From an uncultured Bacilli bacterium (GTDB taxonomy: Bacteria; Bacillota_I; Bacilli_A; RF39; UBA660), in contig CATNCE010000004.1 of NCBI GenBank assembly GCA_950097225.1, positions 2,493 through 66,492 of the forward strand: DNA of 64,000 nt, in the 5' to 3' direction. The notes beneath the pieces are model-generated. The model did not search any database and was not told the DNA's origin. It saw only the letters and a program-made list of their open reading frames with translations. The position numbers and the translations under genes were made by a program. Shown piece by piece: positions 6,193 through 63,438 of the stretch (within the stretch, counting starts at the first letter, position 1; each line of letters starts with the position of its first letter).

Positions 6193-6289
6193 AAAATGGG
6201 GATTTTCCCTGTTTTTTGTATATGAGCAAGAATGGTATGTAGAAAGAGTACATATAAATTATTAGTCTTGCATAGATATAGGAGATTAT

Positions 6290-7219: not shown

Positions 7220-7241
7220 GAGTTTAGTTGAACTCTTTTTT
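7219..7241 (+). terminator. intrinsic terminator after the VanY-like gene
   Basis: AGAGTT-tagttg-AACTCT stem-loop followed by TTTTT. Confidence 0.55.
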
Positions 7242-7289
7242 GTTTGGCGGAAAATTAAAACTAATGCTATAATTTTATTAGGTGGTTTT

Positions 7290-12780: not shown

Positions 12781-12804
12781 AGGGAAAGTAAATTCCCTTT
12801 TTTT
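12781..12804 (+). terminator. intrinsic terminator after addA
   Basis: AGGGAA-agtaaa-TTCCCT followed by TTTTTT. Confidence 0.7.
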
Positions 12805-12834
12805 CGTTAATAAATATAGTGTAAGGAGAGGAAA

Positions 12835-14208
12835 ATGGAAGGATTAAAAATTCAGGGCTATTATTTAGATGAAACACAGATGCAGGCGATTATAAGTGAT
12901 TGTGACTCTACCTTGGTTGTGGCAGGAGCTGGGTCAGGTAAAACACTTACGATACTCGGAAAAATTAAATATCTTATTGATAATAAGCTAGCAGACAGTG
13001 ATGAAATTCTTTGCATATCTTTTACTAATGAGACTGTTAATAGCCTAAAGATGAAAACGGAAGAAATGGGTTATTGTTTAGATATATTTACATTTCATAA
13101 ATTGGGATTAACTATTCTTGGAGATGTTAGTATTATAGATGATGCATACTTAGAATTTATAGTTGATGAATACATTTTCTCATATATCCGTTATGAAAAG
13201 AAACAATTTTTAGATTCGATATTTTTCTCTAATCAGAATTTTGAGGTTTTAATTAAAAGCCATGAATATGTAAAATTAAAGAATACTATTGTGACATTTA
13301 TTAGACTAGCCAAAAGCAACAATATGTCATTGCAAACGATTTATAAAATATACAGATGGAGTTTCTTTAATGAGAAAAAGATTTTAAAAATGATTTTAGA
13401 TATTATGCTGATATACATGCGCGAGTGTGAGAGTGTGCAAAAAATTGATTTTGATGACATGATTATCAAAGCAACAGATTTGGTAAAAAAGAAGCCTGTT
13501 AAGTACAAATATATAATAATAGATGAATTTCAAGATACTTCATTAGTTAGATATAATTTGATTAAAGAAATCATTAAAATAAATAAGGCAAAAGTTTTTG
13601 TTGTGGGAGATGATTGGCAAAGTATATATCGATTCTCAGGATGTAATTTGGATATATTTGTCAATTTCAACGAGTATTTTAAGGATGTCTCCATTCATAA
13701 TTTGCGGTACACTTATCGTAATAGCAATGAATTAATTAGGATTAGTTCTAGTTTTATTATGAAGAATAAGAAACAGTTGAGAAAGGATATTGTATCGAAT
13801 AAAAATCTTACTAAACCAATAAAGATATTATTTAATTATACAATTGAGGAAGTACTTGCAATTATTGATAGTGAGGATATTTTAGTAATAGGCCGCAATA
13901 ATGCGGATATAAAAAGTGTTAAATGGCATAAGAAACTTACAATTCATAGATCAAAAGGATTAGAAGCTGATAATGTAATATTGGTTAATTCTGATAATAT
14001 TCCAGCACAGATAAAAAATGAGAGAATTTTGCGGCATGTTATTAATGATAAAGACTATATTCCCTTCGAAGAAGAAAGACGCCTATTTTATGTAGCTCTC
14101 ACTAGAACAAAGAACTATATATATATTTTAGTAAATAAAAAAACTAGCCCTTTTGTTAAAGAGCTAATTCATGATTATAGAAATTCTATTGAAATAATTA
14201 AAAAGTAA
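12835..14208 (+). CDS. small UvrD/Rep/helicase IV-like superfamily-1 DNA helicase
   Basis: VAGAGSGKT, IIIDEFQDTS, VGDDWQSIYRFSG, HRSKGLEADNVIL, RLFYVALTRTKN. Confidence 0.8.
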   Translation: MEGLKIQGYYLDETQMQAIISDCDSTLVVAGAGSGKTLTILGKIKYLIDNKLADSDEILCISFTNETVNSLKMKTEEMGYCLDIFTFHKLGLTILGDVSIIDDAYLEFIVDEYIFSYIRYEKKQFLDSIFFSNQNFEVLIKSHEYVKLKNTIVTFIRLAKSNNMSLQTIYKIYRWSFFNEKKILKMILDIMLIYMRECESVQKIDFDDMIIKATDLVKKKPVKYKYIIIDEFQDTSLVRYNLIKEIIKINKAKVFVVGDDWQSIYRFSGCNLDIFVNFNEYFKDVSIHNLRYTYRNSNELIRISSSFIMKNKKQLRKDIVSNKNLTKPIKILFNYTIEEVLAIIDSEDILVIGRNNADIKSVKWHKKLTIHRSKGLEADNVILVNSDNIPAQIKNERILRHVINDKDYIPFEEERRLFYVALTRTKNYIYILVNKKTSPFVKELIHDYRNSIEIIKK

Positions 14209-14210
14209 TT

Positions 14211-14750
14211 CTAATAATTTTCTGCTTTTATTTCAAAATATGCTTGTGGATGTGCACAAACTGGGCATACTTCTGGTGCTTGTGAACCAATAACGATATG
14301 TCCACAGTTACGACATTTCCAAATGCGATCGCCATCTTTTGAGAATACTAAACCATTTTCAAGATTCTCAATAAGTTTACGATATCTTTCTTCATGTTCT
14401 TTTTCGATTGCTGCTACACTCTCAAACAAGAAAGCGATTCTTTCAAATCCCTCTTCACGAGCTGTGCGAGCAAATTCATCATACATGTCAGTCCATTCAT
14501 AGTTTTCACCATTAGCAGCATCTTTTAAATTATCTAAAGTTGCTGGAACTTTTCCTCCATGTAATTCTTTATACCACATTTTAGCATGTTCTTTTTCGTT
14601 CTCAGCAGTTTCTAAGAAGATTGCTGCTATTTGTTCATAGCCATCCTTTTTTGCTTGAGATGCGAAATATGTGTATTTATTTCGTGCTTGTGATTCGCCA
14701 GCAAATGCTGTCATTAAATTTTGTTCTGTTTTACTTCCTTTTAATTCCAT
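14211..14750 (-). CDS. rbr: rubrerythrin
   Basis: N-terminal ferritin-like diiron domain ([31 protein letters not shown]) and C-terminal rubredoxin CxxC...CxxC (CRNCGH...CPVCAH). Confidence 0.92.
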
Positions 14751-14765
14751 AATTACACCTTTCTT

Positions 14766-14781
14766 AGTAATATTTATTACT
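14766..14781. promoter_or_regulatory. 7-2-7 palindrome at the rbr promoter/TSS, candidate Fur-family (PerR-like) operator
   Basis: AGTAATA-tt-TATTACT lies 16-31 nt upstream of the rbr ATG and starts 6 nt downstream of a minus-strand TATAAT (14788-14793). Confidence 0.4.
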
Positions 14782-14867
14782 TATTTAATTATATCATATA
14801 TTAATTAAATAAGGAAAAAAAAGTAATTTTAAAGAGAGGCGTTTATATGTATATTAGGAGGAAAGAC

Positions 14868-15143
14868 ATGAATAGTTGGAAAAAGTTAAATGATTCTCTT
14901 CTTTATTATATGGAGTATAATATATTACCAAATATGCTTGCTTATGGACTAGCCTACTCTTTTTTTAATAAATTAAGCCTGGATTGCTCGTTTAGCCAAT
15001 ACTTCAATAGCGTTTTAAGTATGTTTAATATTATTGATATAGAGATGAAAAAACAATTTAAGTTAGTTGATAAAATATTAACTAGTAAATATGGAGTCTT
15101 AATTATTAATATTGATCCTATTGAAATTATTAAGATAAGGTGA
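14868..15143 (+). CDS. hypothetical small protein
   Basis: ATG at 14868 follows AGGAGG. No recognisable motif. Confidence 0.4.
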   Translation: MNSWKKLNDSLLYYMEYNILPNMLAYGLAYSFFNKLSLDCSFSQYFNSVLSMFNIIDIEMKKQFKLVDKILTSKYGVLIINIDPIEIIKIR

Positions 15144-15192
15144 AGCTGTATAATTATTTACATCTAACTAATACTATTAATGGTGAAATATT

Positions 15193-15939
15193 ATGGCAAA
15201 TACACATAGTAGTATTAATTTTGGATTAGTCAATATTCCAATTTTAATGAATCCAGTTATCCGCAATAACGATACATCATTTAATCAGTTGCATAAAAAA
15301 TGTGAAAGTAGAATTAATTATATCAAGTATTGTCCAAATTGTAATAAAAAAATTAAAGACGATGAGATCATAAAGGGTTATCAATATGAAAAAGATAAAT
15401 ATGTCTTTTTTGAAAAGGAAGAATTAGATAAACTTAAACCAGAAAACGAAAAAGAGATTGAAATTATTGCCTTTGTTCCTTTAAAAGACATTGACCCAAT
15501 TTATTTTGAAAAAAGTTATGATATCGATGCTGAAGGAAAAGGTAAAGCTTATTATTTATTTTGTGAGGCATTAAAGAGAAGTAAATTGGTGGCATTAGCA
15601 AAGACAGTTATTGGCAGCAAATTTTATTATTGTATTTTAAGATTTAATAATCAAAATATTATTATGACTACTCTGTATTTTGAAGAGGAAGTAAATATAA
15701 ATAAAGATGATAGTCCGATTAAAATCAATGATAAGGAATTAGAATTAGCAATTAAGTTAATTACCTCTCTACAAGGCAAATTTGAGCCTGATAAATATAG
15801 GGATGATTATCAAGATAATATTAGGAAAGCAATTGATGATAAAATTAATGGCAAAAGCATTAAAGGTAAAAAGAAGAAAAGCCGAAAACAAATTAGTGAC
15901 TTGATGGAAGCCTTAGAAAAGAGCTTAAAAGAGCGATGA
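15193..15939 (+). CDS. ku: Ku DNA end-binding protein (NHEJ)
   Basis: INFGLVNIPI N-terminus, Ku core and a basic C-terminal tail (KGKKKKSRKQ). The stop overlaps the ligase start (ATGA). Confidence 0.88.
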   Translation: MANTHSSINFGLVNIPILMNPVIRNNDTSFNQLHKKCESRINYIKYCPNCNKKIKDDEIIKGYQYEKDKYVFFEKEELDKLKPENEKEIEIIAFVPLKDIDPIYFEKSYDIDAEGKGKAYYLFCEALKRSKLVALAKTVIGSKFYYCILRFNNQNIIMTTLYFEEEVNINKDDSPIKINDKELELAIKLITSLQGKFEPDKYRDDYQDNIRKAIDDKINGKSIKGKKKKSRKQISDLMEALEKSLKER

Positions 15940-16823
15940 ATATTTGGAAAAATAGAGATTGGCACCCAATGCTATTAAATAAACTAGATAAACCTTTTGA
16001 TTCGGATGAATATTTATATGAATTAAAGTTTGATGGTATCCGAGCTATTATTTTTGTCTCACCACAAGAAGTGATGATTAAGAGTCGCAACAATGTAGAT
16101 TTAACGAGGCTATTTCCAGAATTAAGTTCTTTAAAAGAATTAGTAAAAAATGATGTAATCTTTGATGGCGAGCTTATTATTTTCAATGATGGAAAACCTG
16201 TTTTTTCTAAAATACAAAAACGAGTGAGATTAAAGAGCAAGAAATCGATTGAATATTATAGCATAAGTGAACCTGCGGTTTTTATGGCTTTTGATATACT
16301 TTATGATAAAAAAGATTTGACTACTACTCCCCTATTTGAAAGAAAGAAGATCTTGAATAAAATTAGGGATAGTGATGTATTTATGAAAGTTAAAATAGTC
16401 GATAAAAAAGGATGTAAATTCTTTGACGCAATAAGAAAAGCTAACCTAGAGGGAATGGTAGCAAAGAATAAATTGGGCTTATATCATATAAATAAAAGGA
16501 CTTCTGATTTTATTAAAATAAAAAACAATATGCGGGAGCAATTTATAATCGGTGGATATAAAGAGAATAAGAATAATACGATGTCAGTTGCTTTGTTAGA
16601 AAGAAAATTAAATAAGTTCTCTTTAGTGGGATTTGTAAGTGTTAGCAAGAATAGTAAATTATTTACAAGGCTTTTGAATATGGGGAATACAAAACCATTT
16701 TTTGAGTGTGATAAGGATATTACTTTTATTAAACCCTTTGTGCAATGCCAAGTATCCTATTTAGAAAAAACGAGCAAGGGATTATTAAGACATGCTAAGC
16801 TTGTGGAAGGTGATGATTTATGA
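15936..16823 (+). CDS. ATP-dependent DNA ligase (stand-alone LigD ligase domain)
   Basis: Nucleotidyltransferase motifs KFDGIR (I), FDGELI (III), EGMVAK (IV), IKIK (V). Confidence 0.88.
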   Translation: MNIWKNRDWHPMLLNKLDKPFDSDEYLYELKFDGIRAIIFVSPQEVMIKSRNNVDLTRLFPELSSLKELVKNDVIFDGELIIFNDGKPVFSKIQKRVRLKSKKSIEYYSISEPAVFMAFDILYDKKDLTTTPLFERKKILNKIRDSDVFMKVKIVDKKGCKFFDAIRKANLEGMVAKNKLGLYHINKRTSDFIKIKNNMREQFIIGGYKENKNNTMSVALLERKLNKFSLVGFVSVSKNSKLFTRLLNMGNTKPFFECDKDITFIKPFVQCQVSYLEKTSKGLLRHAKLVEGDDL

Positions 16824-18202
16824 AATTAGATGAATATAATAAAAAGAGGAATTTTAAAGTTACTAAGGAACCAAAAGGAGCTGTTCTAAAAAGAAAACGT
16901 AAAAACCTAAAGTTTGTGGTACAACATCATCTAGCTTCTAGAGATCATTTTGATGTACGTTTAGAATATAATGGTGTCTATGTAAGTTTTGCTGTTCCAA
17001 AGGGCCCTTCTTTTAATCCAAAAGATAAAAGATTAGCAGTTAAAGTGGAGGATCATCCCCTTTCATATGGCAACTTTGAAGGCGTTATTCCTAAACAGCA
17101 ATATGGTGCGGGAGTTGTTCAACTTTGGGATAAAGGTTATTGGCATCCAGACAAGAGTGAAAAAGTAGATTTCAATAAAGGCCCAATAAAATTCACTTTT
17201 GTTGGAAAAAGATTAATGGGCAAATGGACTCTTGTAAAGTTTAAAGAGGATAATTGGTTATTAATAAAAGAAAAAGATGAGTATGTAAACCTTGCCGATA
17301 TAAAAAAATATACAACAAGTATTACAACTGGTAGAACGATAAAAGAAATCGAAGCAGGCCTCAGTGATGATGATATCCTTATTACTAATCCAAATAAAGT
17401 TATATTTAAGAAATCTATGACGACAAAGAAACAAATTGCGGATTATTATAAATTAGTTGCAAAAAGAATGATGCCCTTTTTAGATAAAAGACTTATAAGC
17501 ACAGTGCGCTCGCCTGAGGGCGGTATACGCAATATATTTTTTATGAAACATTTTAATCAGAAAGTTAATAAAGGTCTTAATAAAAAATTAATAACTAGTA
17601 AGAATGGTGAAAAAACAGACTATTATTATATCAAGAACACTTCTGGATTGGTTGGAGAAGTGCAAATGAATAGTTTTGAATTTCATATTTGGGGATCAAA
17701 AGAAAATAAGATTAAAAAACCAGATATTCTGGTGTTTGATTTAGATCCAGATGAAGGTTTATCTTTAAAGAAAGTGCGTGAGGGAGTTTTAGATTTAAAA
17801 GAAATATTAGATGAATTAGAAGTTCCTGCGTACTTAAAAACTAGCGGAGGTAAAGGATACCATATATACGTTCCTTTACAATTTACATCATGGAAGAAAT
17901 GTGCTGATTTAGCTAAAAATGTTGCTCAAGTTTTAGTAGAAAAATATCCAGATAAGTACACCCTTAGTATGCGAAAAAAGGAGAGAAAAGGAAAAATATT
18001 TATCGATTATTTCCGCAATAAATTGGGAGCCACTAGTGTCTGTCCCTATTCTCTTAGGTTAAAAAATAATCCTACTGTATCTTGTCCAATATTTTGGGAT
18101 GAGTTACAGAAAATCAAACCTGATAGTATTACCATTAATAATATAAAAAACAGATTAAAAAAAGAAGATCCCTGGGAATCTTTCTTTGCTAATTATAATT
18201 AG
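16820..18202 (+). CDS. LigD 3'-phosphoesterase domain fused to LigD polymerase/primase domain
   Basis: N-terminal PE motif FVVQHHLASRDHFDVRLE. C-terminal AEP primase-polymerase motifs (VFDLDPDE, TSGGKGYHIYVPL). The start overlaps the ligase stop (ATGA). Confidence 0.85.
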   Translation: MKLDEYNKKRNFKVTKEPKGAVLKRKRKNLKFVVQHHLASRDHFDVRLEYNGVYVSFAVPKGPSFNPKDKRLAVKVEDHPLSYGNFEGVIPKQQYGAGVVQLWDKGYWHPDKSEKVDFNKGPIKFTFVGKRLMGKWTLVKFKEDNWLLIKEKDEYVNLADIKKYTTSITTGRTIKEIEAGLSDDDILITNPNKVIFKKSMTTKKQIADYYKLVAKRMMPFLDKRLISTVRSPEGGIRNIFFMKHFNQKVNKGLNKKLITSKNGEKTDYYYIKNTSGLVGEVQMNSFEFHIWGSKENKIKKPDILVFDLDPDEGLSLKKVREGVLDLKEILDELEVPAYLKTSGGKGYHIYVPLQFTSWKKCADLAKNVAQVLVEKYPDKYTLSMRKKERKGKIFIDYFRNKLGATSVCPYSLRLKNNPTVSCPIFWDELQKIKPDSITINNIKNRLKKEDPWESFFANYN

Positions 18203-18207
18203 TTATT

Positions 18208-19296
18208 CTACTTTAGCGATGAACTATTGTTTATTAAAGAAGTGTTGTACAAAAATAAAATATCTTTGGTATTAAAATCAATATAATCTGCTAATATCTT
18301 TGGTGATATATAACGAGTGTCAACAATAGTTATGGAACTATATCCTTCAATCAATAACGGAATTAAACTACTACCAAAGGAATCACGGAAGACAACTAGT
18401 TCTCTTTCCGTCTTGTTGTTAGGATTGTCAATTTTTAATAGGGAAACAGATCCTGATAAATAGACGTTGTATTTATCGATGCCATCTATAGCGCTATAAT
18501 CGTATACTGGTCCTTCCTCTTTTGTCTCATAATTGTAGACTACAGCAGAATCGATTATATCATTGGTTAAAATATGAATTTTATCAATTAGTTTATTATC
18601 AGGATAACGTCCATTATAAACACCTTTAAAATCAGCTATAATGCGGTCGTCGTAAGTTGATGATATACGCGTGTTCATTGATGAAGCAATATGCGATGCC
18701 ACATCTATAAGGTGTTCTTGGCGCCAATGAGAATCGGTTAAATAGTACTTCTCGAGATTTAAGGATTTTGTTATATCAATGTATGTAGCCCATGGTATAT
18801 CTTCTTTCATATATTGTTGTAATAAATCATAATCTAATCGTAAATTTTTATCATTAACAAAATAATTTTTATCGGGAATAATAGAATAATATATTTTGTT
18901 ATTATCAGTTAGATAATTATCATGAACATAGTTCATTTTCTTAGTTAGATTATGAATTGATTTTTCATTTAAAGGGTAGATTTGTTCAACTAATGAATTA
19001 TCGTGAATATATATGTTATTGAAATTTGTTTTATGAAATAGTTTCATTTCCATCTTATTTTTTAATTGACGATAGCTCTCACGATGAGCAAATTGATCCA
19101 TTGTATAGTTCTCAAATTTCTCAAAAAAGCTGCCGTCTAGAGTTGATTTAATCGTTAGCTCAGGAAATTGTTCTAGTTTACGTCGCTCAGAAAGTGATAT
19201 GTCCAAATCACTTTTTATAAGGTTGTATATAAACGTTGCTATTATGATTAAAAAGAAAGAGCTAATCACTATTATATTTTTTAATTTATCATTCAT
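18208..19296 (-). CDS. DHHW-motif protein, extracytoplasmic partner of the MBOAT acyltransferase
   Basis: N-terminal TM anchor and LTDSHWRQE motif. Lies 9 nt downstream of the MBOAT gene. Confidence 0.6.
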   Translation of the reverse strand: MNDKLKNIIVISSFFLIIIATFIYNLIKSDLDISLSERRKLEQFPELTIKSTLDGSFFEKFENYTMDQFAHRESYRQLKNKMEMKLFHKTNFNNIYIHDNSLVEQIYPLNEKSIHNLTKKMNYVHDNYLTDNNKIYYSIIPDKNYFVNDKNLRLDYDLLQQYMKEDIPWATYIDITKSLNLEKYYLTDSHWRQEHLIDVASHIASSMNTRISSTYDDRIIADFKGVYNGRYPDNKLIDKIHILTNDIIDSAVVYNYETKEEGPVYDYSAIDGIDKYNVYLSGSVSLLKIDNPNNKTERELVVFRDSFGSSLIPLLIEGYSSITIVDTRYISPKILADYIDFNTKDILFLYNTSLINNSSSLK

Positions 19297-19305
19297 GTTG
19301 GCCTC

Positions 19306-20697
19306 CTAGAATCTAAAATATAAGAATGGGTTATATGAGTTATCTACTAAATAAGCTGTTGTAATAAACAAGATAGCAATTATAACTACTGGCTCTAGTA
19401 GGTTTATTATTTTATTGGTATTTGGCTTGCTTTTTAGTTTATTTACGATACTTTTTAATAGTGGCGTTGAACCTATTATTGCAATTAATAAGATCACAAT
19501 GTTATTTCGCAAAACATAGATAGTATATTGGTTAATAAATAAACTTTCTTTGCCTCCAAATAGACCAATTATATTGCTAAATGCTTCGCTCATATCAGTA
19601 GATGCAAATATAATAAAGCTTATTAAAACTATTAATAGTACATAGCATCGTTTAAAAATGTTTGGTATCTTATCAAGAAAGGAATTTAAGAATAGCTTTT
19701 CAATAATTAACACTACCCCAAATAAAAGTCCCCATATTACGAAGTTCCAACTTGCTCCGTGCCAAATGCCTGTTAGCATCCAGACAATTAATATATTCCT
19801 AATTTGTATTTTTAGACCTTTTTTATTTCCACCTAAGGGAATATAAATGTAATCTTTAAACCATGTACTTAAAGAGATGTGCCAACGATGCCAAAACTCG
19901 GTAATACTCTTGGAGATAAAGGGATAATTGAAGTTTTCAAGAAAATGAAATCCAAATATCCTTCCTAAACCGATGGCCATATCAGAGTAAGCGGAAAAAT
20001 CAAAATAGACTTGCAGCATATAACTTATAGCATAAAGCCAATAAAATACTATGCTTTTTTCATCTGTTGCAAGAAAGTCTGAACAGGTTAATCCAAGCAT
20101 ATTAGCTATCAATACTTTTTTCCCTAGACCAATACAAAATAGTCTTATGCCACTAGAAATATCATCAAGCGTCGATTTTCTATCCTTTAATTCAAGAGCA
20201 ATTTTGTCATATCTAACGATAGGGCCAGCTATAAGTTGAGGAAATAAAGCTACATAAGTGGCAAGGGAGAAAAAGTTTTTTTGGACGGGTACTTTTCCAT
20301 TATATACATCAATCACGTAGCTAAGAATCTGAAAAGTATAAAATGATATGCCAATTGGCAAGGCAATTTCCAAAAATGGAATACTAGTATTAAAAGCAAA
20401 ATTTATGTTGCTAATAAAAAAGGAAGTATATTTAAAAAATATTAAAAGCGATAAATGAATAGCTATGATTAGAACAAAAATAGAACGCTTATGAAATCGA
20501 TTAATTAATAAAGCTCCCAGGTAAGCAATCAATATTTCTGCAAGCATTAACAATACATAGCTTTGTTCCCCATAAAAGTAGAACATTAAAGATGCTAGTA
20601 ATAAAATAAAGTTACGAAACTTATTTGGAATAAGAAAATAAAGAACAATTACAATAGGTAAAAAATAATAAATAAAACTTATACTGGTAAATATCAT
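19306..20697 (-). CDS. MBOAT-family membrane O-acyltransferase (AlgI/DltB-like)
   Basis: Polytopic membrane protein with the conserved FWHRWHISLSTWFKDYIYIPLGG histidine motif. Confidence 0.88.
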   Translation of the reverse strand: MIFTSISFIYYFLPIVIVLYFLIPNKFRNFILLLASLMFYFYGEQSYVLLMLAEILIAYLGALLINRFHKRSIFVLIIAIHLSLLIFFKYTSFFISNINFAFNTSIPFLEIALPIGISFYTFQILSYVIDVYNGKVPVQKNFFSLATYVALFPQLIAGPIVRYDKIALELKDRKSTLDDISSGIRLFCIGLGKKVLIANMLGLTCSDFLATDEKSIVFYWLYAISYMLQVYFDFSAYSDMAIGLGRIFGFHFLENFNYPFISKSITEFWHRWHISLSTWFKDYIYIPLGGNKKGLKIQIRNILIVWMLTGIWHGASWNFVIWGLLFGVVLIIEKLFLNSFLDKIPNIFKRCYVLLIVLISFIIFASTDMSEAFSNIIGLFGGKESLFINQYTIYVLRNNIVILLIAIIGSTPLLKSIVNKLKSKPNTNKIINLLEPVVIIAILFITTAYLVDNSYNPFLYFRF

Positions 20698-35110: not shown

Positions 35111-35971
35111 CTAATATTTTAATAAATCTATTGAGCCGTAGTAATATTTCAAAATTTCTTCATAGCTTTTTCCTTCTTTTGCAAGCATATTAGCTCCATA
35201 TTGACTCATTCCTACTCCATGTCCATATCCATGAGTAGTTATTTTATAGACATCTCCTTCGTTAACAATGGAAAAATCGGTACTACGCAATTTTAGAAGC
35301 TTGCGAAATTCAATTCCCGTATATGTTGAATTATCAACTGCTACCTCTTCAACGTGATTAGTTCCGCTGCGTTTAGTTATTGCGATATTAGAAAATTCTC
35401 CTAATGCACTTACTAATTCAGATTTAGTAAAAGTGGTTTCAACTTGATAATTTTTGCTTTCTTTATCCCAAGGGGAGGCAACAGATGTTATGTTTCCCTC
35501 TTTGAATACGGTCATAGAGTCTTCTGTCTCGCCATTTGATGTTGAAAAATAGAAACTTTTAAACAATTTATTATCTTTGTTCATGACGATAGATTCTGTT
35601 TCTTGAACACACTTTTTAATTTTTTCGTAGTAAAGTTCAAAGTCGTCTTTCCAACGTTCTCCCATTTCTTCTAGAGTATTTAGGCATTGATCTTGCTTGG
35701 TTAAACTAACATTTCCAATATCCCTTTGATATAAAGCATAGGTTCTTGAGGCGATGGCTTGTGCTTTTAATGCATTTTCTTCATAAAGGGCTGGCATCTC
35801 ACAGGCAACGACACTTATAAGATAATTTTCTAACTCTTCATCCGTATTAATAGTAATTGGTTTGTCTTTGATTTCGGGGACTTTAAATGAAGATTTAACT
35901 ACATCGAAGAAATAGAATAAGGAAACTACTACTACTATGCATATAAAAAGATTAATTATATTATTTTTCAC
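35111..35971 (-). CDS. spoIID: SpoIID/LytB-domain lytic transglycosylase (stage II sporulation protein D)
   Basis: [14 protein letters not shown] and [18 protein letters not shown] signature. Confidence 0.85.
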
Positions 35972-39444: not shown

Positions 39445-39960
39445 CTAAGCATTGTATTTTTTTAGCATATCTTGAACTAATGTCGTATATTCATTTTCGG
39501 AAGTATCTTCATCTATTAAACATAATGGCGGATACATAACACACCACCAGTTAACACCACGTTTTTCACCTAGTGATAAAACAATCGAATCGTAGTAACC
39601 AGCATTGTAATCTATTCCTTGATAGTTTTTCTGATCAAAGTAATTTAATCCAATTGATAAGTCGTATTTATCATGAATATTGTTCATAATTAGGTAGTTT
39701 TTAACAAAGTCATCAATATTGTGATAATTACTATTGATAATATTGGTAGCATCTTCCTTAGATTTAGCATCTTTAATAAGATTATATATATAACTACTTA
39801 AGTTTTTACTTAGCTTACTTTTGTTTACTTGATCTTCTAGCGTATTAGAATTAGCAATAACGCGAAAACGAATAGAACTTTCTGGTATTATTATATTAGT
39901 TTCTTTATTATACATTATTATCGTAATAACAATTGCTACTACAATTAATATCTTTTTCAT
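39445..39960 (-). CDS. spoIIR: stage II sporulation protein R
   Basis: Signal anchor, RFRVIANSNTLEDQ and WWCVMYPPLCL signature motifs. Confidence 0.8.
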   Translation of the reverse strand: MKKILIVVAIVITIIMYNKETNIIIPESSIRFRVIANSNTLEDQVNKSKLSKNLSSYIYNLIKDAKSKEDATNIINSNYHNIDDFVKNYLIMNNIHDKYDLSIGLNYFDQKNYQGIDYNAGYYDSIVLSLGEKRGVNWWCVMYPPLCLIDEDTSENEYTTLVQDMLKKYNA

Positions 39961-45348: not shown

Positions 45349-46428
45349 TTATTTGTCTTCTTTTTCTTCGGGAATACGAACGATAAATTGATAAAATGGA
45401 TCAAAGTCAAATTCCTCTACTTCAAGAGCAACTTGATTTTTTTTAGCGTTAGCAATGATTTTTTTGATTCCTTCGATAACATCTTGACGAGTTTGATATT
45501 CAGGTTCTTTATAAACTTTCTCTTCAATTTCTTGAATAGTTTCAATTTCATCTGGTTCCTCTTCGTCATCTAATTCTAATAATTCATAGTCTCTTTCAAC
45601 CGAATCGGAAGCATTAATAGGCGTTTTAAAGGGATTAAATCCAAGGGATGGGTTCATATTAACAGATTCATTTTCTAGATTGTTGAAGAAAAGAGAATCT
45701 TTTTTCTTTTCTCTTGGAACTTCATTATTATAAACATCGGTCTTAGGGGTATAAGAATTAGCTAGAATATCAACGGAATTGCTGACTAAGCCGTCGATAT
45801 CAATATCCCCATTTTTTTGAAATACGCCTTGAATGATATCAATTTCATTGTCCAGTCTTCTTACGGGCCATTTTTCAGTAATTATTTTTTGAAGTAACTC
45901 GACTTGCTTACCTTTGTCATTTACTCTTAAAAGGCTTCTGGCGTGTCTTTCGCTGATTTTATCATGCAAAACAGCGTCTTGAACTGGCTCTGCTAAAGTT
46001 AAAAGACGAATTTTGTTGGCAACACTGGATTGACTAGTACCTAATCTTTTAGCAAGTTGTTCTTGTGTTACATAGTTTCGATCGAGCAATTTCTTATATG
46101 ATTTAGCTTCTTCGATAGCTGATAGGTTGCGACGATGCGTATTTTCAATTATGGCTACTTCGGCTGATTCATTGTCATCGAGTTCAGCAATAATGGCTGG
46201 AACACTTGTTAAACCCGCCAAGGAAGCAGCTTTAAAACGACGCTCTCCGGCGATTATTTCAAACTTATCTCCTGCTCTTCTAAGTACAAGAGGCTGAATT
46301 ATTCCATGCTCTTTTATTGATGCTGCTAGTTCGTCTAAGGCTTCTTTATCAAATTGAAGTCTTGGTTGAAAGCGATTAGGAATAATACTATCAATATTAA
46401 TTAATCTTATTTGTGCTTCCATTTTCAT
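45349..46428 (-). CDS. ParB/Spo0J/Noc-family protein with Noc-like HTH and C-terminus and a long acidic insertion
   Basis: ParB N-domain (IPNRFQPR, GIIQPLVLRR, IIAGERRFKAA), HTH (VTQEQLAKRLGTSQSSVANKIRLL), ISERHARSLL, and C-terminal EVEEFDFDPFYQFIVRIPEE. Directly downstream of rsmG. No parA/soj adjacent. Confidence 0.85.
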   Translation of the reverse strand: MKMEAQIRLINIDSIIPNRFQPRLQFDKEALDELAASIKEHGIIQPLVLRRAGDKFEIIAGERRFKAASLAGLTSVPAIIAELDDNESAEVAIIENTHRRNLSAIEEAKSYKKLLDRNYVTQEQLAKRLGTSQSSVANKIRLLTLAEPVQDAVLHDKISERHARSLLRVNDKGKQVELLQKIITEKWPVRRLDNEIDIIQGVFQKNGDIDIDGLVSNSVDILANSYTPKTDVYNNEVPREKKKDSLFFNNLENESVNMNPSLGFNPFKTPINASDSVERDYELLELDDEEEPDEIETIQEIEEKVYKEPEYQTRQDVIEGIKKIIANAKKNQVALEVEEFDFDPFYQFIVRIPEEKEDK

Positions 46429-52747: not shown

Positions 52748-52980
52748 TGTTGAAAAACATGTACTTATCAACACGATTAGGGATCTTAATACAGTTATCA
52801 ACAGTTTCAACGTTGATTGTTAATAAGTTTTCAAGTACTTTTAATAACTATTTTTTTATTTTGTTGAAAGGGTTGAAAAGTAGGATAAAATACTATATTA
52901 TAGATGACTAAGAGTTGAAAAATATGTTGAAAACGGTGTTGATAAAGATATTTTTGATTTTTTGCTTTACTTTTTCAACT
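52748..52980. promoter_or_regulatory. oriC part 1: DnaA-box cluster upstream of dnaA
   Basis: At least 9 nonamers of the form TT(A/T)TCAACA or close variants, in both orientations. Starts: 52748, 52765, 52795, 52862, 52871, 52913, 52925, 52937, 52972. Confidence 0.8.
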
Positions 52981-55749: not shown

Positions 55750-56199
55750 ATGAAAAATTATGTTATTAATGCTAATACTTTGGCGATTATTCCCTGTGAT
55801 AATAATATGTCATTAGTTTATGAAGGGGAAAATATGTTTATTATTGATTCTAAGCCCAATAATATCATTAATAAGAATTGTATTCGCAATGGGAGTACAC
55901 TTAATGGAAGACAAAAATCGACGGAGAATATTACAGGAAGTAACTACAAGGTGCCAATTTTGGTTAGTGAAGAGGATAAAATTATCTTTTTCCCAACTTC
56001 TTCGCCCCGCTTAAAAAGTGTTTCATGGCTAAATTTAACTAATATCGATAAGACATATTATAATATAGCTAAAAAGGTTAGTGTTGTGGTTTTTTATAAT
56101 GCGGTTATGATTGAATTAAATGTTTCTTTAAATATAATTAATAACCAAATTCTGAAAGCAACAAGATTAGAACATAATTTGCGCAGAAATCGAGCATAA
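55750..56199 (+). CDS. ComK-family protein (short form)
   Basis: Aligns by eye with B. subtilis ComK, recalled from memory: YVINANTLAIIP / YEVNGATIAVLP; NCIRNGSTLNGRQKS / SCRFFGSSYAGRKAG; KVPILVSEEDKIIFFPTSSP / KPPIMVDPSNQIFLFPTLSS. Confidence 0.7.
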   Translation: MKNYVINANTLAIIPCDNNMSLVYEGENMFIIDSKPNNIINKNCIRNGSTLNGRQKSTENITGSNYKVPILVSEEDKIIFFPTSSPRLKSVSWLNLTNIDKTYYNIAKKVSVVVFYNAVMIELNVSLNIINNQILKATRLEHNLRRNRA

Positions 56200-59322: not shown

Positions 59323-61776
59323 ATGGATAATAATGGAATTGTAAAAATTAATATTGAAGATGAAATTAAGGATTCATTTTTGGAATATTCAATGAGTGTA
59401 ATTGTTGCACGTGCTTTACCTGACCTTAGAGATGGTTTAAAGCCAGTTCACAGACGTATTTTATATTCTATGTATGAGAATGGCTATACACCTGATAAAC
59501 CTTTCAGAAAGTCTGCTAAGACGGTTGGAGAGGTTATGGGTAATTACCATCCGCATGGAGATTCATCTATTTATGATGCTATGGTACGTATGGCTCAGCC
59601 TTTTTCTTATCGTAATGTATTAATTGATGGCCATGGAAATTTTGGTTCTATGGATGGCGATGGTGCAGCAGCAATGCGTTATACTGAGGCTAGACTTTCT
59701 AAGCTTTCATTGGAATTATTAAGGGATATAAAGAAGGATACTGTTGATTTTGTTCCTAATTTCGACGATACAACAACAGAACCATCGATATTACCATGTC
59801 GTTTTCCTAATATTTTGGTAAATGGTACAGTTGGTATTGCCGTTGGTATGGCAACAAATATTCCTCCTCATAATTTAGGAGAGGTAATAAATGGATGTAT
59901 TGCCTATATCGATAATCATGATATAACTACTGATGAATTGATGGAGCATGTAAAAGGTCCAGATTTTCCAACAGGAGCTGTTATTCTTGGTAATTCGGGT
60001 ATTAGAAGAGCTTATGAAACTGGTAAAGGAACTATTACTTTACGAGGTAAGGTGGCAATCGAGGAAAATAATGGACACCAAACCATTATTATTACTGAGT
60101 TACCATATATGGTTAATAAGAAACTTTTTCAACATCGTATTGCTGAGTTAGTTCGCGATAAGTTAATCGATGGAATCGCTGATTTACATGAAGAAACTAA
60201 CCTTGAAAATGGTGTTAAAATTGTTATTACTCTTAAAAAGGATGCTAATGCTAATGTAGTTTTGAACAATTTATACAAGCAAACAGCATTACAATCGAAT
60301 TTTAGTATTAATTTGTTAATGATTGATCAACAAAAACCATGTACTTATGGATTGAAGACAATTATTTCTAAATATGTTGAGTTCCAAAAAGAAGTTATTA
60401 TTCGTCGTACTAAGTATGATTTGGGTAAAGCTGAGGATCGTGTGCATATTTTAAATGGTTTGAAGATTGCGTTAGATAATATTGATGAAGTTGTTCACAT
60501 TATTCGTAATTCGAAGACTGATGAGATTGCTAAACAGCAATTAATTGAACGTTTTGGTTTGACTGATATTCAAACTGAGGCAATATTAGAAATGCGCCTT
60601 AGAAGATTAACTGGCTTAGAAATCGACAAGATTTTAGAAGAATTAGCTGAGTTATTAGAAAAAATTAAGTATTATAGAGCGATTTTAGAAAGCGATGAGA
60701 TGGTTTTAGGAATTATTAAGGATGAATTAATTGAAATAAGAGAACGTTATGCTGATGAACGTCGTACTTATATCGATATGACCGCTGTTGATTTCATTGA
60801 TGATGAGTCTTTAATTCCTGAAGAAAACATTATTGTTAGTATAACTGATAAGGGTTATATTAAAAGATGTACATCAGATACATTTAAATCTCAACATCGT
60901 GGTGGTGTAGGAGTTAAGGGAATGTCGACGAATGAAGAGGATTATGTTAAACATTTGATTAATTGCTCAACGCATGATTATGTTGCATTTTTTACTAATA
61001 AGGGAAAAGTGTATCGTATTAAAGGTTATGAAATACCAGAGTATTCTCGCCAAGCTAAAGGACTTCCAATCATTAATCTATTGCAAATAGAGAAGGATGA
61101 GCGAATTAGTTCAATAGTTGCATATAACCGTGAACTTGAGGATTCTTATCTGTGTTTTGCTACTAAAAATGGTATCGTTAAACGTACTAGATTGGATGAA
61201 TTTGAAAATATTCGAACAAGCGGTAAAATTGCTATTAGTTTAAGAGAAGGAGACGAGCTTTTAGATGTTAAGAGTACAGATGGAGATTCTAAGATTATTT
61301 TAGCTTCTACTTCAGGCCGCATGGTTGTTTTTGACGAGAATGAGATTAGACCAATGGGACGTACAGCTTCGGGAGTTCGTGGAATTAATTTAGATGGTGA
61401 ATTCTGTACAGGAATGGAAATCGGCAAGCTTGATGATAATATTTTAGTTGTTACTAAGAATGGTTATGGAAAGAAAACCTTTGTTAATGAGTACAGAATG
61501 ACTAAACGTGGTAGCAAAGGAGTAAAGGCTCTTAGCATAACTGATAAGAATGGACCATTAGTTGCTCATAAAATTGTTAACAATGATTCTGATTTAATGA
61601 TTATTACTGAATCAGGCATGTTGATTCGTTTACCAATTGAACAAATTTCTCAATTAGGCCGAGTTACACAAGGTGTTAAATTGATAAATTTGAGAGAGAA
61701 TCAATTTGTATCAACAGTGAGTGTTGTTTCTAAAGATGAGGAAGTGACAACTGATGAAGAGAGTGTGGAAGAATAG
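59323..61776 (+). CDS. gyrA: DNA gyrase subunit A
   Basis: [18 protein letters not shown] active-site Tyr region, and C-terminal beta-pinwheel repeats. Confidence 0.97.
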
Positions 61777-61843
61777 AACACTTTCTTTTTTTTTGTTCTT
61801 CTTTTTAATATAATGTTAATAAGAAGAGCGGCTATTCGTTTTA

Positions 61844-61859
61844 TGTTTCACGTGAAACT
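61844..61859. promoter_or_regulatory. parS-like site 1 (15/16)
   Basis: TGTTTCACGTGAAACT. The perfect palindrome is 14 bp (61845-61858). Confidence 0.8.
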
Positions 61860-61903
61860 ACACATTTTGAAAATCTGTTTTTAACATGTTTAATGATAAC
61901 CAA

Positions 61904-61919
61904 TGTTTCACGTGAAACA
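61904..61919. promoter_or_regulatory. parS site 2
   Basis: TGTTTCACGTGAAACA. The perfect palindrome extends to 20 bp (61902-61921). Confidence 0.85.
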
Positions 61920-62005
61920 TTCATTTAATATAATTATCTGTGTTTATGAGGGAAAAAAGTACTAAAATATTCAAAATACAGATAAATAGCATAGTACTTT
62001 TCTAA

Positions 62006-62021
62006 TGTTTCACGTGAAACA
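62006..62021. promoter_or_regulatory. parS site 3
   Basis: TGTTTCACGTGAAACA. The perfect palindrome extends to 32 bp (61998-62029). Confidence 0.85.
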
Positions 62022-62111
62022 TTAGAAAATAATAGTTATGGTGTTAAAAATCGAACCTCATAATCAGAATTTGTAGCTTAATTGCTAGAAGTGGGTTATC
62101 TATTTATACGA

Positions 62112-62127
62112 TGTTTCACGTGAAACA
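62112..62127. promoter_or_regulatory. parS site 4
   Basis: TGTTTCACGTGAAACA. The perfect palindrome is 18 bp (62111-62128). Confidence 0.85.
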
Positions 62128-62324
62128 TTGATTGTTGGCATTGATAAATAAATCCGATGTTAGTTTTAATTATATTATACTGAAAGGTTTATGTCAGAGT
62201 TCAATATTTAACTTGAGATGTAGCATGCTTTCTGCTTTTTTTATAAATAGTTCCTAAAAAGGATGATAATTTCTAACAAATAATTAATATTGGATTATAT
62301 ATTAAGTTGGTTAAAATTTCACAA

Positions 62325-62340
62325 TGTTTCACGTGAAACA
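62325..62340. promoter_or_regulatory. parS site 5
   Basis: TGTTTCACGTGAAACA. The perfect palindrome extends to 30 bp (62318-62347). Confidence 0.85.
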
Positions 62341-62419
62341 TTGTGAATATAAATATTTCATATTTTATCTAGAATAATTCTTATGAACTTAATTTTTATT
62401 CTTCGCTTTCTTATTGATA

Positions 62420-62435
62420 TGTTTCACGTGAAACA
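62420..62435. promoter_or_regulatory. parS site 6
   Basis: TGTTTCACGTGAAACA. The perfect palindrome extends to 28 bp (62414-62441). Confidence 0.85.
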
Positions 62436-62537
62436 TATCAAGTAAATATTCTTTGTTTTTTTATAAAAGAAACAATGATTTTAAGCAAAAAAGTAAATAT
62501 TAGATAGTGTATTTGGAATCTATCAGTCGTTTTTCAA

Positions 62538-62553
62538 TGTTTCACGTGAAACA
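62538..62553. promoter_or_regulatory. parS site 7
   Basis: TGTTTCACGTGAAACA. The perfect palindrome extends to 28 bp (62532-62559). Confidence 0.85.
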
Positions 62554-62634
62554 TTGAAAGAAAATAAAGATGAAATTAACTAATGTATTTATAAAGAAGG
62601 AGTTGAATACTTATGACTGCAAGTTCGATTTATA

Positions 62635-62650
62635 TGTTTCACGTGAAACA
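62635..62650. promoter_or_regulatory. parS site 8
   Basis: TGTTTCACGTGAAACA. The perfect palindrome extends to 22 bp (62632-62653). Confidence 0.85.
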
Positions 62651-62744
62651 TATTTTATACAGATATTTTGTTTTTGAAAGAAATGTTATCTTTTTCTGTA
62701 CAAATATTAATAATTATTGAAGTAATGTAAACGTATATCATCAA

Positions 62745-62760
62745 TGTTTCACGTGAAACA
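62745..62760. promoter_or_regulatory. parS site 9
   Basis: TGTTTCACGTGAAACA. The perfect palindrome extends to 20 bp (62743-62762). Confidence 0.85.
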
Positions 62761-62921
62761 TTAGTTGTAAATATAGTTATCAACATTTTATTTTTATTTT
62801 ATTCGTAGATATAAGGCTATTTCTTGAAATCTGTGTGTTGTGACAGAAATTTAGAATTTGTTTTAAGCATAAAATGGCAAAAAAAGCTATACTTTTTTAT
62901 AAAATATGTTATAATTTAATT

Positions 62922-62998
62922 GCGCAACAGATATGTTAGAACTTGGTCAGGATCGGAAGATAGCAGCCATAATATCCTCTATTTGTGTGCGCTTTTTT
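62922..62998 (+). ncRNA. ffs: small signal recognition particle RNA (4.5S/scRNA type)
   Basis: GGTCAGGATCGGAAGATAGCAGCC matches the conserved SRP domain IV motif (GGUCAGGUCCGGAAGGAAGCAGCC in E. coli 4.5S). The closing helix is GCGCAACAGATA / TATTTGTGTGCGC followed by a T-run. Extended -10 TGtTATAAT at 62907-62915. Position next to tadA/dnaX as in Bacillus. Confidence 0.75.
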
Positions 62999-63012
62999 TA
63001 TGAGGTGATAAT

Positions 63013-63438
63013 GTGAATGAATATTTTAATATAGCGCTTAAAGAAGCTGATAAAGCGCTTCGTTCTTTCGACGTTCCTGTGGGTGCAGTTATAGTTTTCA
63101 ACAATAAAATTATTTCTAGAGCACATAATAAAAGAATTCGGACACATGATGTGACTAATCATGCTGAGATTATCGCGATTAAAAAGGCCGCAAAAAAAAT
63201 GAGGGATTGGAGATTGTCCGATTGTGATTTATATGTTACTTTAGAACCTTGTGATATGTGTAAGGAAATTATCCTTCAATCACGGATAAGAAGCGTCTAT
63301 TATTTAGCAAATAAGCCTTCTTATAAAAAAGGGTATAAAAAAACTGAGTTTGTGAATGTGGGAACAGATATGAGTTTTCAACAACAAGAATCGTCCGATA
63401 AGTTATCAACATTTTTTAAAATGAACTGCAAAAGATAG
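63013..63438 (+). CDS. tadA: tRNA-specific adenosine deaminase TadA
   Basis: CDA zinc motifs HAEIIAI and LEPCDMC. GTG start after GAGGTGA. Confidence 0.9.
   Translation: MNEYFNIALKEADKALRSFDVPVGAVIVFNNKIISRAHNKRIRTHDVTNHAEIIAIKKAAKKMRDWRLSDCDLYVTLEPCDMCKEIILQSRIRSVYYLANKPSYKKGYKKTEFVNVGTDMSFQQQESSDKLSTFFKMNCKR

What the first reader, a model, noticed from the sequence alone, without database searches (positions are those of the whole stretch)
61844..62760. Plasmid-centromere-like array of nine parS sites in a 1.2-kb ORF-free region next to gyrA
GTTTCACGTGAAAC occurs nine times, with palindrome centres at 61851.5, 61911.5, 62013.5, 62119.5, 62332.5, 62427.5, 62545.5, 62642.5 and 62752.5. Eight copies are the perfect 16-mer TGTTTCACGTGAAACA. 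This equals the Firmicute Spo0J/ParB binding site parS (consensus TGTTNCACGTGAAACA). Centre-to-centre spacings are 60, 102, 106, 213, 95, 118, 97 and 110 bp, and the intervening sequences look unrelated to each other. The whole 61777-63012 stretch has no ORF of 60 aa or more in any frame, which is unusual for an otherwise tightly packed region. In characterised chromosomes, parS sites are usually single and scattered over tens to hundreds of kb around oriC, often inside genes. A dense tandem intergenic array is the architecture of plasmid centromeres such as F sopC. The array lies about 8-9 kb from the DnaA-box clusters. It could act as a dedicated chromosomal centromere, a very strong ParB/condensin loading platform, or a ParB sink. 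I did not notice other copies in the window, but I could not search exhaustively.
Basis: partly seen in the sequence, partly recalled or inferred. Interest (0 to 1): 0.85.

Follow-up and report, generated by a model that had tools for sequence, protein, structure and literature searches.

The report
Conserved origin-proximal parS centromere array
Nine perfect copies of the bacterial centromere sequence parS sit in under 1 kb of non-coding DNA about 9 kb from the replication origin; the array is real, conserved and under selection, but it is a dense example of a known kind of chromosomal centromere cluster, and the ParB protein that should bind it is not encoded in the window.

Summary
There are nine exact GTTTCACGTGAAAC cores, eight of them perfect 16-mers, at 61844-62760 between gyrA and an SRP-RNA gene. 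Chance expectation is 0.

The array is not an artefact. Independent assemblies carry it with 9 or 10 copies. Between the two alleles the sites have 0/144 substitutions and the spacers 60/1083.

The same layout, gyrA-[3-10 parS]-SRP RNA-tadA, recurs in about 11 related AT-rich Bacilli MAG species.

Dense parS clusters are not rare. Sixteen of those loci have at least 5 sites per kb. Myxococcus xanthus has a published 22-site stretch in 3.1 kb. The array is therefore a new member of a known kind. It is not a tandem repeat and not plasmid-like.

The only ParB-family gene in the window is Noc-like (Q-K-T-R specificity residues, no membrane helix) and is predicted to bind NBS, not parS. Perfect NBS sites lie next to, or interleaved with, the parS arrays in this clade. 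One lies 533 bp beyond the window end.

Best explanation: a ParB loading and condensin-recruitment platform served by a canonical ParB encoded elsewhere. That ParB is inferred, not found.

The parts
61844..61859 (.). parS-1, TGTTTCACGTGAAACT (perfect 14-bp core; last base of the 16-mer differs)
61904..61919 (.). parS-2, perfect 16-mer (20-bp palindrome 61902-61921)
62006..62021 (.). parS-3, perfect 16-mer inside a 32-bp perfect palindrome (61998-62029)
62112..62127 (.). parS-4, perfect 16-mer
62325..62340 (.). parS-5, perfect 16-mer inside a 30-bp perfect palindrome (62318-62347)
62420..62435 (.). parS-6, perfect 16-mer inside a 28-bp perfect palindrome (62414-62441)
62538..62553 (.). parS-7, perfect 16-mer inside a 28-bp perfect palindrome (62532-62559)
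62635..62650 (.). parS-8, perfect 16-mer (22-bp palindrome 62632-62653)
62745..62760 (.). parS-9, perfect 16-mer; corresponds to a fusion of sites 9 and 10 of the 10-copy allele (104-bp indel)
62916..63001 (+). small SRP RNA gene; right-hand boundary of the array, conserved next to the arrays of relatives
59323..61776 (+). gyrA, left-hand flank of the array
63013..63438 (+). tadA, right-hand flank (then dnaX, ybaB, recR beyond the window)
52765..52945 (.). DnaA-box-like cluster upstream of dnaA (oriC region; GC skew changes sign here), 8.9 kb from the array
45349..46428 (-). Only ParB-family gene in the window, called 'NocL' here. It is a Noc-like CTPase-fold protein with Q-K-T-R specificity residues. 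It lacks the N-terminal membrane helix and has a long acidic linker and a small C-terminal domain. Predicted binder of NBS, not of the parS array.

Best explanation
The array is the main chromosomal centromere, that is, the ParB loading zone, of an uncultured, spore-forming, AT-rich member of the Bacilli (MAG GCA_948979055.1).

Proposed mechanism, from established ParB biochemistry. Each 16-bp palindrome is a nucleation site where a canonical CTP-bound ParB dimer closes into a clamp. The clamp slides off onto flanking DNA and frees the site for the next dimer. Nine or ten perfect sites within 1 kb, in DNA free of coding genes, raise the loading rate at one point 9 kb from oriC. This builds one large ParB-DNA complex over the origin region. 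That complex recruits SMC-ScpAB condensin and marks the origin for segregation. It probably works without a ParA motor, as in S. aureus and S. pneumoniae.

Copy number drifts by recombination between sites (9 against 10 copies).

Shown: the sites, their selection, their conservation and their position.

Inferred: the binder is a canonical ParB (R173/G201 type) encoded outside the roughly 74 kb seen; SMC is recruited; no ParA takes part.

The Noc-like protein encoded 15 kb away is not the binder. It has its own NBS sites beside the array.
For: Site identity and non-randomness.

Real in independent assemblies, with 9- and 10-copy alleles that differ by exactly one site plus spacer.

Purifying selection on the sites: 0/144 against 60/1083 substitutions, P = 2.7e-4.

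Same gyrA-parS array-SRP RNA-tadA architecture, with unrelated spacers, in L032, L035, L038, L096, L102, L103, L106, L117, L119, L122 and L125 (GyrA 60-71% identical where gyrA is within the locus).

Origin-proximal position.

The spacers hold no ORF, no other Rfam RNA, and no excess of promoters or terminators.

Two separate, perfectly conserved site classes, parS and NBS, occur in the same loci with no hybrid sites. This implies two binders.

NocL carries the NBS-type residues Q173/K179/R201 in all 120 close homologues and in 145 of 150 cluster representatives (a further 4 could not be read by the motif search). The residue code is from PMC7383237.

Relatives L143, L145 and L146 encode rsmG-NocL-Soj-Spo0J, with an R..G Spo0J in the two read in full (L143, L145). 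NocL therefore coexists with a canonical ParB in this group.

Precedent for Noc at the origin with an orphan ParB elsewhere and no ParA: S. aureus (bioRxiv 10.64898/2026.03.06.710092).
Against: No canonical ParB and no ParA is encoded in the 64-kb window or in the 10 kb to its right.

The closest NocL lineage examined (P0008, 67% identical) also lacks Soj-Spo0J next to NocL.

I could not retrieve a canonical ParB from this MAG. A homologue search seeded with a relative's Spo0J saturated at 84% identity or more.

SMC-ScpAB was not seen in the window.

No binding data exist for this organism.
Confidence: 0.8

Rival explanations
1. The Noc-like protein (NocL, 45349-46428) is itself the parS binder. 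In this lineage Soj-Spo0J were lost and a Noc paralogue that had lost its membrane helix took over the centromere role.
For: NocL is the only ParB-family gene in about 74 kb around oriC. It lacks the Noc membrane-targeting N-terminus: 16 residues precede PNRFQPR and the ORF cannot be extended. Soj-Spo0J are missing from their usual place after it. K171, a DNA contact conserved in both ParB and Noc, is T in this subfamily. The four-residue specificity code may therefore not transfer fully.
Against: Q173 and R201 are invariant across the family, whether or not Spo0J is adjacent. In the ParB scaffold, parS-specific variants always have R173, and Q173/R201 variants prefer A1/C6 (PMC7383237). Perfect NBS sites exist in the same species and clade beside the parS sites, with no hybrids. 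NocL therefore has its own target.
Confidence: 0.08
2. The palindromes are operators for an unrelated regulator (for example a CACGTG-binding factor) that controls the SRP RNA/tadA/dnaX operon or gyrA read-through. On this reading they are not centromere sites.
For: The array lies directly upstream of the SRP RNA gene, and that adjacency is conserved.
Against: All 16 positions match the ParB consensus exactly. Nine or ten operators spread over 1 kb is not a promoter architecture. Promoter-like hits are no more frequent than in shuffles. In L096 and L122, sites also lie downstream of tadA. In other phyla the same sequence clusters next to parB/rsmG.
Confidence: 0.04
3. The array is a selfish or mutationally generated palindromic repeat (REP/MITE-like, or produced by hairpin template switching) that only resembles parS and has no function.
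For: Four of eight sites sit in perfect palindromes of 28-32 bp whose outer arms differ between copies. This is far beyond chance and points to hairpin-mediated processes. Copy number changes by recombination.
Against: There are no other copies in the 64 kb. The site is fixed at one syntenic location across species whose GyrA is only 60-71% identical, with unrelated spacers. The 16-mers have zero substitutions while the spacers diverge by 5.5%.
Confidence: 0.04
4. Assembly artefact: a collapsed or chimeric repeat.
For: Several short-read unitig assemblies (Logan) break inside the array.
Against: SPAdes contigs from at least two ENA samples and an NCBI MAG span the whole array with unique spacers. 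The NCBI contig is identical to the window over 10,971 nt.
Confidence: 0.01

Closest known systems
Myxococcus xanthus chromosomal parS cluster (22 sites in a 3.12-kb segment next to parAB; PMC3899335)
   Same: A dense run of many chromosomal ParB sites (about 1 per 100-140 bp) near the origin region. It works as one centromere and is bound by ParB in vitro.
   Different: The M. xanthus sites use the GC-rich variant (consensus TGTTCCACGTGGAACG as printed in that paper) and lie beside parAB, with an essential ParA. Here the sites are all perfect TGTTTCACGTGAAACA, lie between gyrA and the SRP RNA gene, and no parAB is nearby.
Bacillus subtilis / Staphylococcus aureus Spo0J(ParB)-parS-SMC systems
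   Same: The same 16-bp consensus, origin-proximal position and Firmicute context. S. aureus likewise has Noc beside rsmG, an orphan ParB and no ParA.
   Different: B. subtilis has 10 parS sites (PMC7022226). S. aureus has five sites spread over about 400 kb. Here 9-10 sites are packed into under 1 kb of non-coding DNA, and no other site is seen in 74 kb.
Plasmid F sopC and other plasmid centromere arrays
   Same: Many ParB-family binding sites are concentrated in a short non-coding stretch.
   Different: As I recall it, sopC is a head-to-tail tandem repeat of 43-bp units next to sopAB on a plasmid. Here the spacing varies from 60 to 213 bp, the spacers are unrelated, Tandem Repeats Finder finds no array, the context is chromosomal and there is no adjacent partition operon. 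One relative, L096, does have a true 55-bp tandem parS repeat.
Noc-NBS nucleoid occlusion system of Bacillales (PMC7383237)
   Same: The neighbouring ParB-family gene has Noc-type residues (Q173, K179, R201). Perfect NBS sites (ATTTCCCGGGAAAT) occur in this species and clade.
   Different: The array sites are parS (G1/A6), not NBS (A1/C6). The protein lacks the membrane-targeting helix. Position 184 is N/S/T rather than K. Its NBS sites cluster beside the parS arrays rather than being spread out.

Membership tests
Chromosomal ParB-parS centromere (ParABS/SMC-loading type) | 16-bp palindrome matching tGTTNCACGTGAAACa | tested here: met
   Eight perfect 16-mers and one with a perfect 14-bp core
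Chromosomal ParB-parS centromere (ParABS/SMC-loading type) | Location in the origin-proximal domain | tested here: met
   8.9 kb from the DnaA-box cluster, dnaA and the GC-skew switch
Chromosomal ParB-parS centromere (ParABS/SMC-loading type) | Sites maintained by selection and conserved in relatives | tested here: met
   0/144 against 60/1083 substitutions between alleles; the same syntenic array in about 11 related species
Chromosomal ParB-parS centromere (ParABS/SMC-loading type) | A cognate canonical ParB (R173/G201, CTPase) encoded in the genome | tested here: inconclusive
   None in the window or in the next 10 kb. Relatives L143 and L145 encode one. The rest of the MAG could not be searched.
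Chromosomal ParB-parS centromere (ParABS/SMC-loading type) | ParB binding and spreading at the sites; SMC recruitment | not testable with these tools
   Needs ChIP-seq, BLI or Hi-C
Complete ParABS system | A ParA (Soj) ATPase partner | tested here: not met
   No Soj-like ORF in the window (tblastn), beside NocL or in the next 10 kb. The rest of the genome is unseen.
Plasmid-type tandem centromere (sopC-like) | Head-to-tail repeat units of constant period | tested here: not met
   Spacings range from 60 to 213 bp, the spacers are unrelated and Tandem Repeats Finder finds no array
Plasmid-type tandem centromere (sopC-like) | Adjacent cognate partition operon on an extrachromosomal replicon | tested here: not met
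   Flanked by gyrA and SRP RNA/tadA in the dnaA-dnaN-recF-gyrBA origin cluster
Noc-NBS sites | A at position 1 and C at position 6 of each half-site (ATTTCCCGGGAAAT) | tested here: not met
   The array sites are G1/A6. No NBS-like site with up to 3 mismatches lies in the window. The nearest perfect NBS is 533 bp beyond the window end.

The most novel reading that the evidence does not exclude
The locus is a composite, two-protein centromere. In this clade of uncultured Bacilli, a Noc paralogue has lost its membrane helix (NocL, with a conserved FFNNLE linker motif and a small C-terminal domain). It no longer acts in nucleoid occlusion. Instead it loads at NBS sites placed beside, or 23-25 bp from, the parS sites, so that ParB and NocL clamps are co-loaded at one origin-proximal platform. 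NocL might then act as a boundary, a helper or a second segregation adaptor, in lineages that have lost ParA.
Probability: 0.3. Interest if true: 0.7.

Novelty: new member of a known kind. Interest (0 to 1): 0.45.

Why it matters
Reviews list parS number and clustering as an open question: why do sites multiply and stay close together when one is enough (PMC7333895)?

This locus gives a clean natural case. It has 9-10 identical sites in non-coding DNA and a visible copy-number polymorphism made by site-to-site recombination. Selection on the sites is measurable, and the array holds a conserved position across a whole clade of uncultured gut Bacilli.

The truncated survey also shows that arrays of at least 5 sites per kb are common in genomes that have never been studied experimentally. 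The textbook picture of 'single, scattered sites' therefore comes from a few model organisms.

The side observation may matter more. A very large family of helix-less Noc-like proteins has NBS sites that sit with the parS arrays. This would make the functional divergence of ParB and Noc directly testable in a new setting.

Tried and rejected
Prevalence figures are lower bounds and are biased towards spacings of about 100 bp.

(2) I looked for function in the spacers: ORFs of 20 aa or more, sigma-70 promoters, terminators, and Rfam at E <= 1. Only the SRP RNA turned up.

(3) I looked for spacer homology or tandem structure and found none.

(4) I looked for other repeated palindromes in the window that could be NocL targets and found none.

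(5) I tried several ways to find the cognate ParB:
- tblastn of Spo0J and Soj against the window;
- the contexts of NocL homologues;
- the 10 kb to the right of tadA;
- a homologue search with a relative's Spo0J, whose top 120 hits were all at least 84% identical and so never reached this lineage;
- cluster look-ups, which gave no accession numbers that could tie proteins to the MAG.

(6) The deep-mutational-scan values for QKTR, QKSR and QKNR were not in the held supplements of PMC7383237. Livny et al. 2007 is not held. The supplements of PMC8136486 are not held.

(7) The AlphaFold model of NocL shows a confident ParB-N/HTH core (residues 1-200), a disordered linker and a small helix-strand-strand C-terminal domain. 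It says nothing about DNA specificity, so I did not take it further.

(8) Helical phasing of the spacings: by my own arithmetic on the spacings there is no consistent phase, so I dropped the idea.

Full report
OBSERVATION. The pattern search confirms nine exact copies of GTTTCACGTGAAAC at 61845-62759, against none in 100 shuffles. Eight are the perfect 16-mer TGTTTCACGTGAAACA, and the first ends in T. The only other near-match in the 64 kb is a 2-mismatch, non-palindromic site at 1941 inside an ORF. Centre-to-centre spacings are 60, 102, 106, 213, 95, 118, 97 and 110 bp. The region 61777-63012 has no ORF of 60 aa or more. It is not empty, though: a small SRP RNA gene lies at 62916-63001. The spacers show no excess of promoter-like sites, no terminators and no other Rfam family. 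Apart from the 20-28 nt around each site, the spacers are unrelated, and Tandem Repeats Finder reports no array.

CONTEXT. The window covers a Firmicute-type origin region. The gene order is rnpA-yidC-jag-mnmE-mnmG-rsmG followed by a ParB-family gene (45349-46428, minus strand). To the right come dnaA (53030), dnaN, a ComK-like ORF, recF, gyrB, gyrA (to 61776), the array, the SRP RNA and tadA. DnaA-box-like sites cluster at 52765-52945 and the GC skew changes sign there. The array therefore lies 8.9 kb into the right replichore. G+C content is 29.7%. The window also carries spoIIR and spoIID, so the organism is probably a spore-former. It is identical over 10,971 nt to contig CARGCH010000007.1 of the NCBI MAG GCA_948979055.1.

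IS IT REAL AND SELECTED? Contigs from independent metagenome assemblies carry the same locus. Two ENA SPAdes contigs span it with ten sites, and the NCBI contig spans it with nine. Many Logan unitigs enter it from either side. Alignment of the 9- and 10-copy alleles shows a single 104-bp indel that removes exactly one site plus one spacer. This is the signature of recombination or slippage between two sites. Across the alignment the parS 16-mers have 0 substitutions in 144 positions. The rest of the gyrA-tadA interval has 60 in 1083, or 5.5% (binomial P = 2.7e-4). For comparison, gyrA third codon positions differ by 3.3%. The sites are therefore under purifying selection and the spacers are not.

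CONSERVATION. I scanned one genome per GTDB species for two parS cores 75-105 nt apart. The scan returned its maximum of 120 stretches and stopped early.
- Eleven of the hits are AT-rich (22-33% G+C) Bacilli, 'Tenericutes' or 'Mycoplasma'-labelled MAGs. In each, the sites lie in the gyrA-tadA neighbourhood. GyrA is 60-71% identical where gyrA falls within the locus.
- Ten of these eleven show the SRP RNA gene beside the array.
- They carry 3-10 sites, mostly spaced 90-120 bp apart, though that spacing range is biased by the scan pattern.
- One of them, L096, has a true 55-bp tandem repeat with nine perfect cores and one 1-mismatch copy.

The array is thus a clade-level feature at a fixed syntenic position.

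HOW UNUSUAL IS IT?
- The other hits come from Actinomycetota, Alpha- and Betaproteobacteria, Clostridia, Planctomycetota, Spirochaetota, Patescibacteria and other groups. Their clusters usually lie beside rsmG, parB or mnmG.
- Sixteen of the 120 loci hold at least 5 sites within 1 kb and four hold at least 8. These are lower bounds because the scan was truncated.
- In the literature, M. xanthus has a '22-repeat parS stretch' on a 3.12-kb fragment that ParB shifts in vitro (PMC3899335).
- A review notes 20-23 sites in S. coelicolor and L. innocua. It lists the number and clustering of parS as open questions (PMC7333895).

This array, at 9-10 sites per kb, is at the top of the range I saw. It is still a member of a known kind. 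It is not sopC-like, because it has no constant period, no repeated unit and no adjacent partition operon.

WHO BINDS IT? The window encodes one ParB-family protein and no ParA. That protein is Noc-like, for these reasons.
- Its best solved relatives are Noc structures (7NG0/7NFU, 199 bits), ahead of B. subtilis Spo0J (170 bits).
- Its best NCBIfam model is nucleoid_noc, at 268 bits against a cut-off of 315.
- Jalal et al. showed that four positions set parS or NBS specificity. [quoted passage not shown] Noc has Q173, K179, K184 and R201 (PMC7383237). At these positions the window protein reads Q-K-T-R.
- All 120 close homologues (54-100% identity) read Q-K-x-R. So do 145 of the 150 representatives of 50%-identity clusters; one reads Q-R-N-R twice over (2 sequences) and 4 could not be read by the motif search.

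The family differs from classical Noc in four ways.
- It has no N-terminal membrane-targeting extension. Sixteen residues precede PNRFQPR, and the ORF cannot be extended.
- Position 184 is N, S or T.
- In the window's own subfamily, K171 is replaced by T.
- It has a long acidic, disordered linker with a conserved FFNNLE motif, followed by a small helix-strand-strand C-terminal domain.

I call this protein NocL.

Three results argue that NocL is not the parS binder.
(i) A metagenome scan with the family alignment found relatives L143, L145 and L146 in which rsmG-NocL is followed by Soj and a second ParB-family gene. In L143 and L145, which I read in full, that gene is a canonical Spo0J with R173, G201 and the N-terminal LGKGLEELF / LGRGLEELF motif. 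NocL therefore coexists with a true ParB.
(ii) Q173 and R201 stay invariant in lineages that lack an adjacent Spo0J.
(iii) Perfect NBS sites (ATTTCCCGGGAAAT) exist in this clade. Only about 0.004 would be expected by chance in the 1.86 Mb held.

The NBS sites lie beside or inside the parS arrays.
- In L102 there are three NBS sites, each 23-25 bp from a parS.
- In L122 there are three.
- L125 and L117 have one each.
- L119 has one inside dnaX.
- The window's own species has one inside dnaX (L007:9306, L218:11521). It maps 533 bp beyond the window end and is present in every strain contig that reaches that position. It encodes the peptide IISREII using the codons TCC and CGG, which I would expect to be rare in a genome this AT-rich.

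The density is 10 perfect NBS in about 91 kb around the arrays. Elsewhere I saw 1 perfect site plus one 1-mismatch site in about 339 kb of related AT-rich sequence. There are two perfectly conserved site classes and no hybrids, which implies two proteins: NocL for NBS and a canonical ParB for parS.

That canonical ParB is not in the window or in the 10 kb to its right, which holds dnaX, ybaB, recR, holB, yaaT, pth, mfd and further genes. I could not retrieve it by other routes. S. aureus is a precedent: it has Noc, an orphan ParB, five parS sites and no ParA.

MECHANISM.
- Shown: the sites exist, are selected, are conserved and are origin-proximal.
- From established ParB biochemistry: CTP-ParB nucleates at parS, closes into a clamp and slides away. 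Loading is limited by site turnover, so many sites in one place raise the flux of clamps and the local ParB density. The ParB complex then loads SMC-ScpAB.
- Inferred for this organism: the array is the principal, possibly the only, loading zone, and it acts without ParA. Its position in DNA free of coding genes may limit collisions with transcription at the loading sites. Copy number is tuned by unequal recombination.

RIVALS. I rank the alternatives as follows: NocL as the binder (0.08), an unrelated regulator (0.04), a non-functional selfish or mutational palindrome (0.04) and an assembly artefact (0.01). The evidence for and against each is given in the rival-explanation entries.

VERDICT. 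The centromere or ParB-loading reading is supported by comparative evidence. The claim that the architecture is exceptional or plasmid-like is not supported. The array is a new, very dense and cleanly conserved member of the known class of origin-proximal parS clusters. The more novel lead is the pairing of parS arrays with NBS sites for a large, uncharacterised family of Noc-like proteins that lack the membrane helix.

Noticed in passing
window 45349-46428 (-); homologues P0001-P0269: The ParB-family gene next to rsmG belongs to a very large family of uncultured-Bacilli proteins (at least 150 clusters at 50% identity). They carry the Noc-type specificity residues Q173/K179/R201. They lack the Noc N-terminal membrane helix. 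Position 184 is N/S/T. They have a long disordered acidic linker with a conserved FFNNLE..E..NM motif and a small C-terminal domain ending EEFDF..YQ.IIKI. PGAP names them only 'ParB/RepB/Spo0J family'.
   Followed up: partly
about 64533 (533 bp beyond the window end; L218:11521, L007:9306); L102, L117, L119, L122, L125: Perfect Noc-binding sites (ATTTCCCGGGAAAT) co-localise with the parS arrays in this clade, several only 23-25 bp from a parS. In the window's species and in L119 one lies inside dnaX at the same peptide (IISREII), encoded with TCC and CGG codons. There are 10 perfect NBS in about 91 kb around the arrays, against 1 in about 339 kb elsewhere.
   Followed up: partly
window 61998-62029, 62318-62347, 62414-62441, 62532-62559: Four of the parS sites sit in perfect palindromes of 28-32 bp. 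Their outer arms differ between copies (ttttctaat/attagaaaa, ttcacaat/attgtgaa, ttgatat/atatcaa, tttcaat/attgaaa). The chance of an extension of 5 bp or more is 0.0034 per site. Similar extensions occur at parS sites in relatives and in other phyla, and some NBS sites in relatives also appear to sit in longer palindromes. Possible causes are hairpin template-switch 'correction' or selection for cruciform formation.
   Followed up: partly
window 62700-62760 against L007 7416-7533: Copy-number polymorphism. The 9-copy allele differs from the 10-copy allele by a clean 104-bp deletion between two parS sites. In some strains the last site carries one mismatch (L220, L222, L224, L226).
   Followed up: yes
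window 55750-56199 (+): A ComK-family ORF (Pfam PF06338, E = 1e-33) lies between dnaN and recF inside the conserved origin gene cluster. From my recollection of other Firmicute origin regions, this is an unusual place for a competence regulator.
   Followed up: no
window 39445-39960 (-), 35111-35971 (-): SpoIIR and SpoIID homologues show that this reduced, 30% G+C uncultured bacterium is probably an endospore former. Even so, Soj-Spo0J are missing from their usual place beside rsmG/noc.
   Followed up: no
window 360-1748 (-), 1761-3062 (-): Two adjacent large ORFs (462 and 433 aa) have no Pfam match. The second contains the only other parS-like sequence in the window (TGTTTCGCGAGAAACA at 1941, 2 mismatches, not palindromic).
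   Followed up: no
window 1-20000: GC skew is positive over 1-20 kb, negative over 20-52 kb and positive again after oriC. The left part of the window may be an inverted or rearranged segment, or it may simply follow the gene strand (the addAB-like genes lie on the + strand).
   Followed up: no
L096 5385-5893: A related rabbit-gut Bacilli MAG has a true tandem array, ten 55-bp units each holding a parS (nine perfect cores, one with 1 mismatch). It lies between tadA and the next gene, with one more site upstream of the SRP RNA. This is much closer to a plasmid-type centromere than the window's array.
   Followed up: partly
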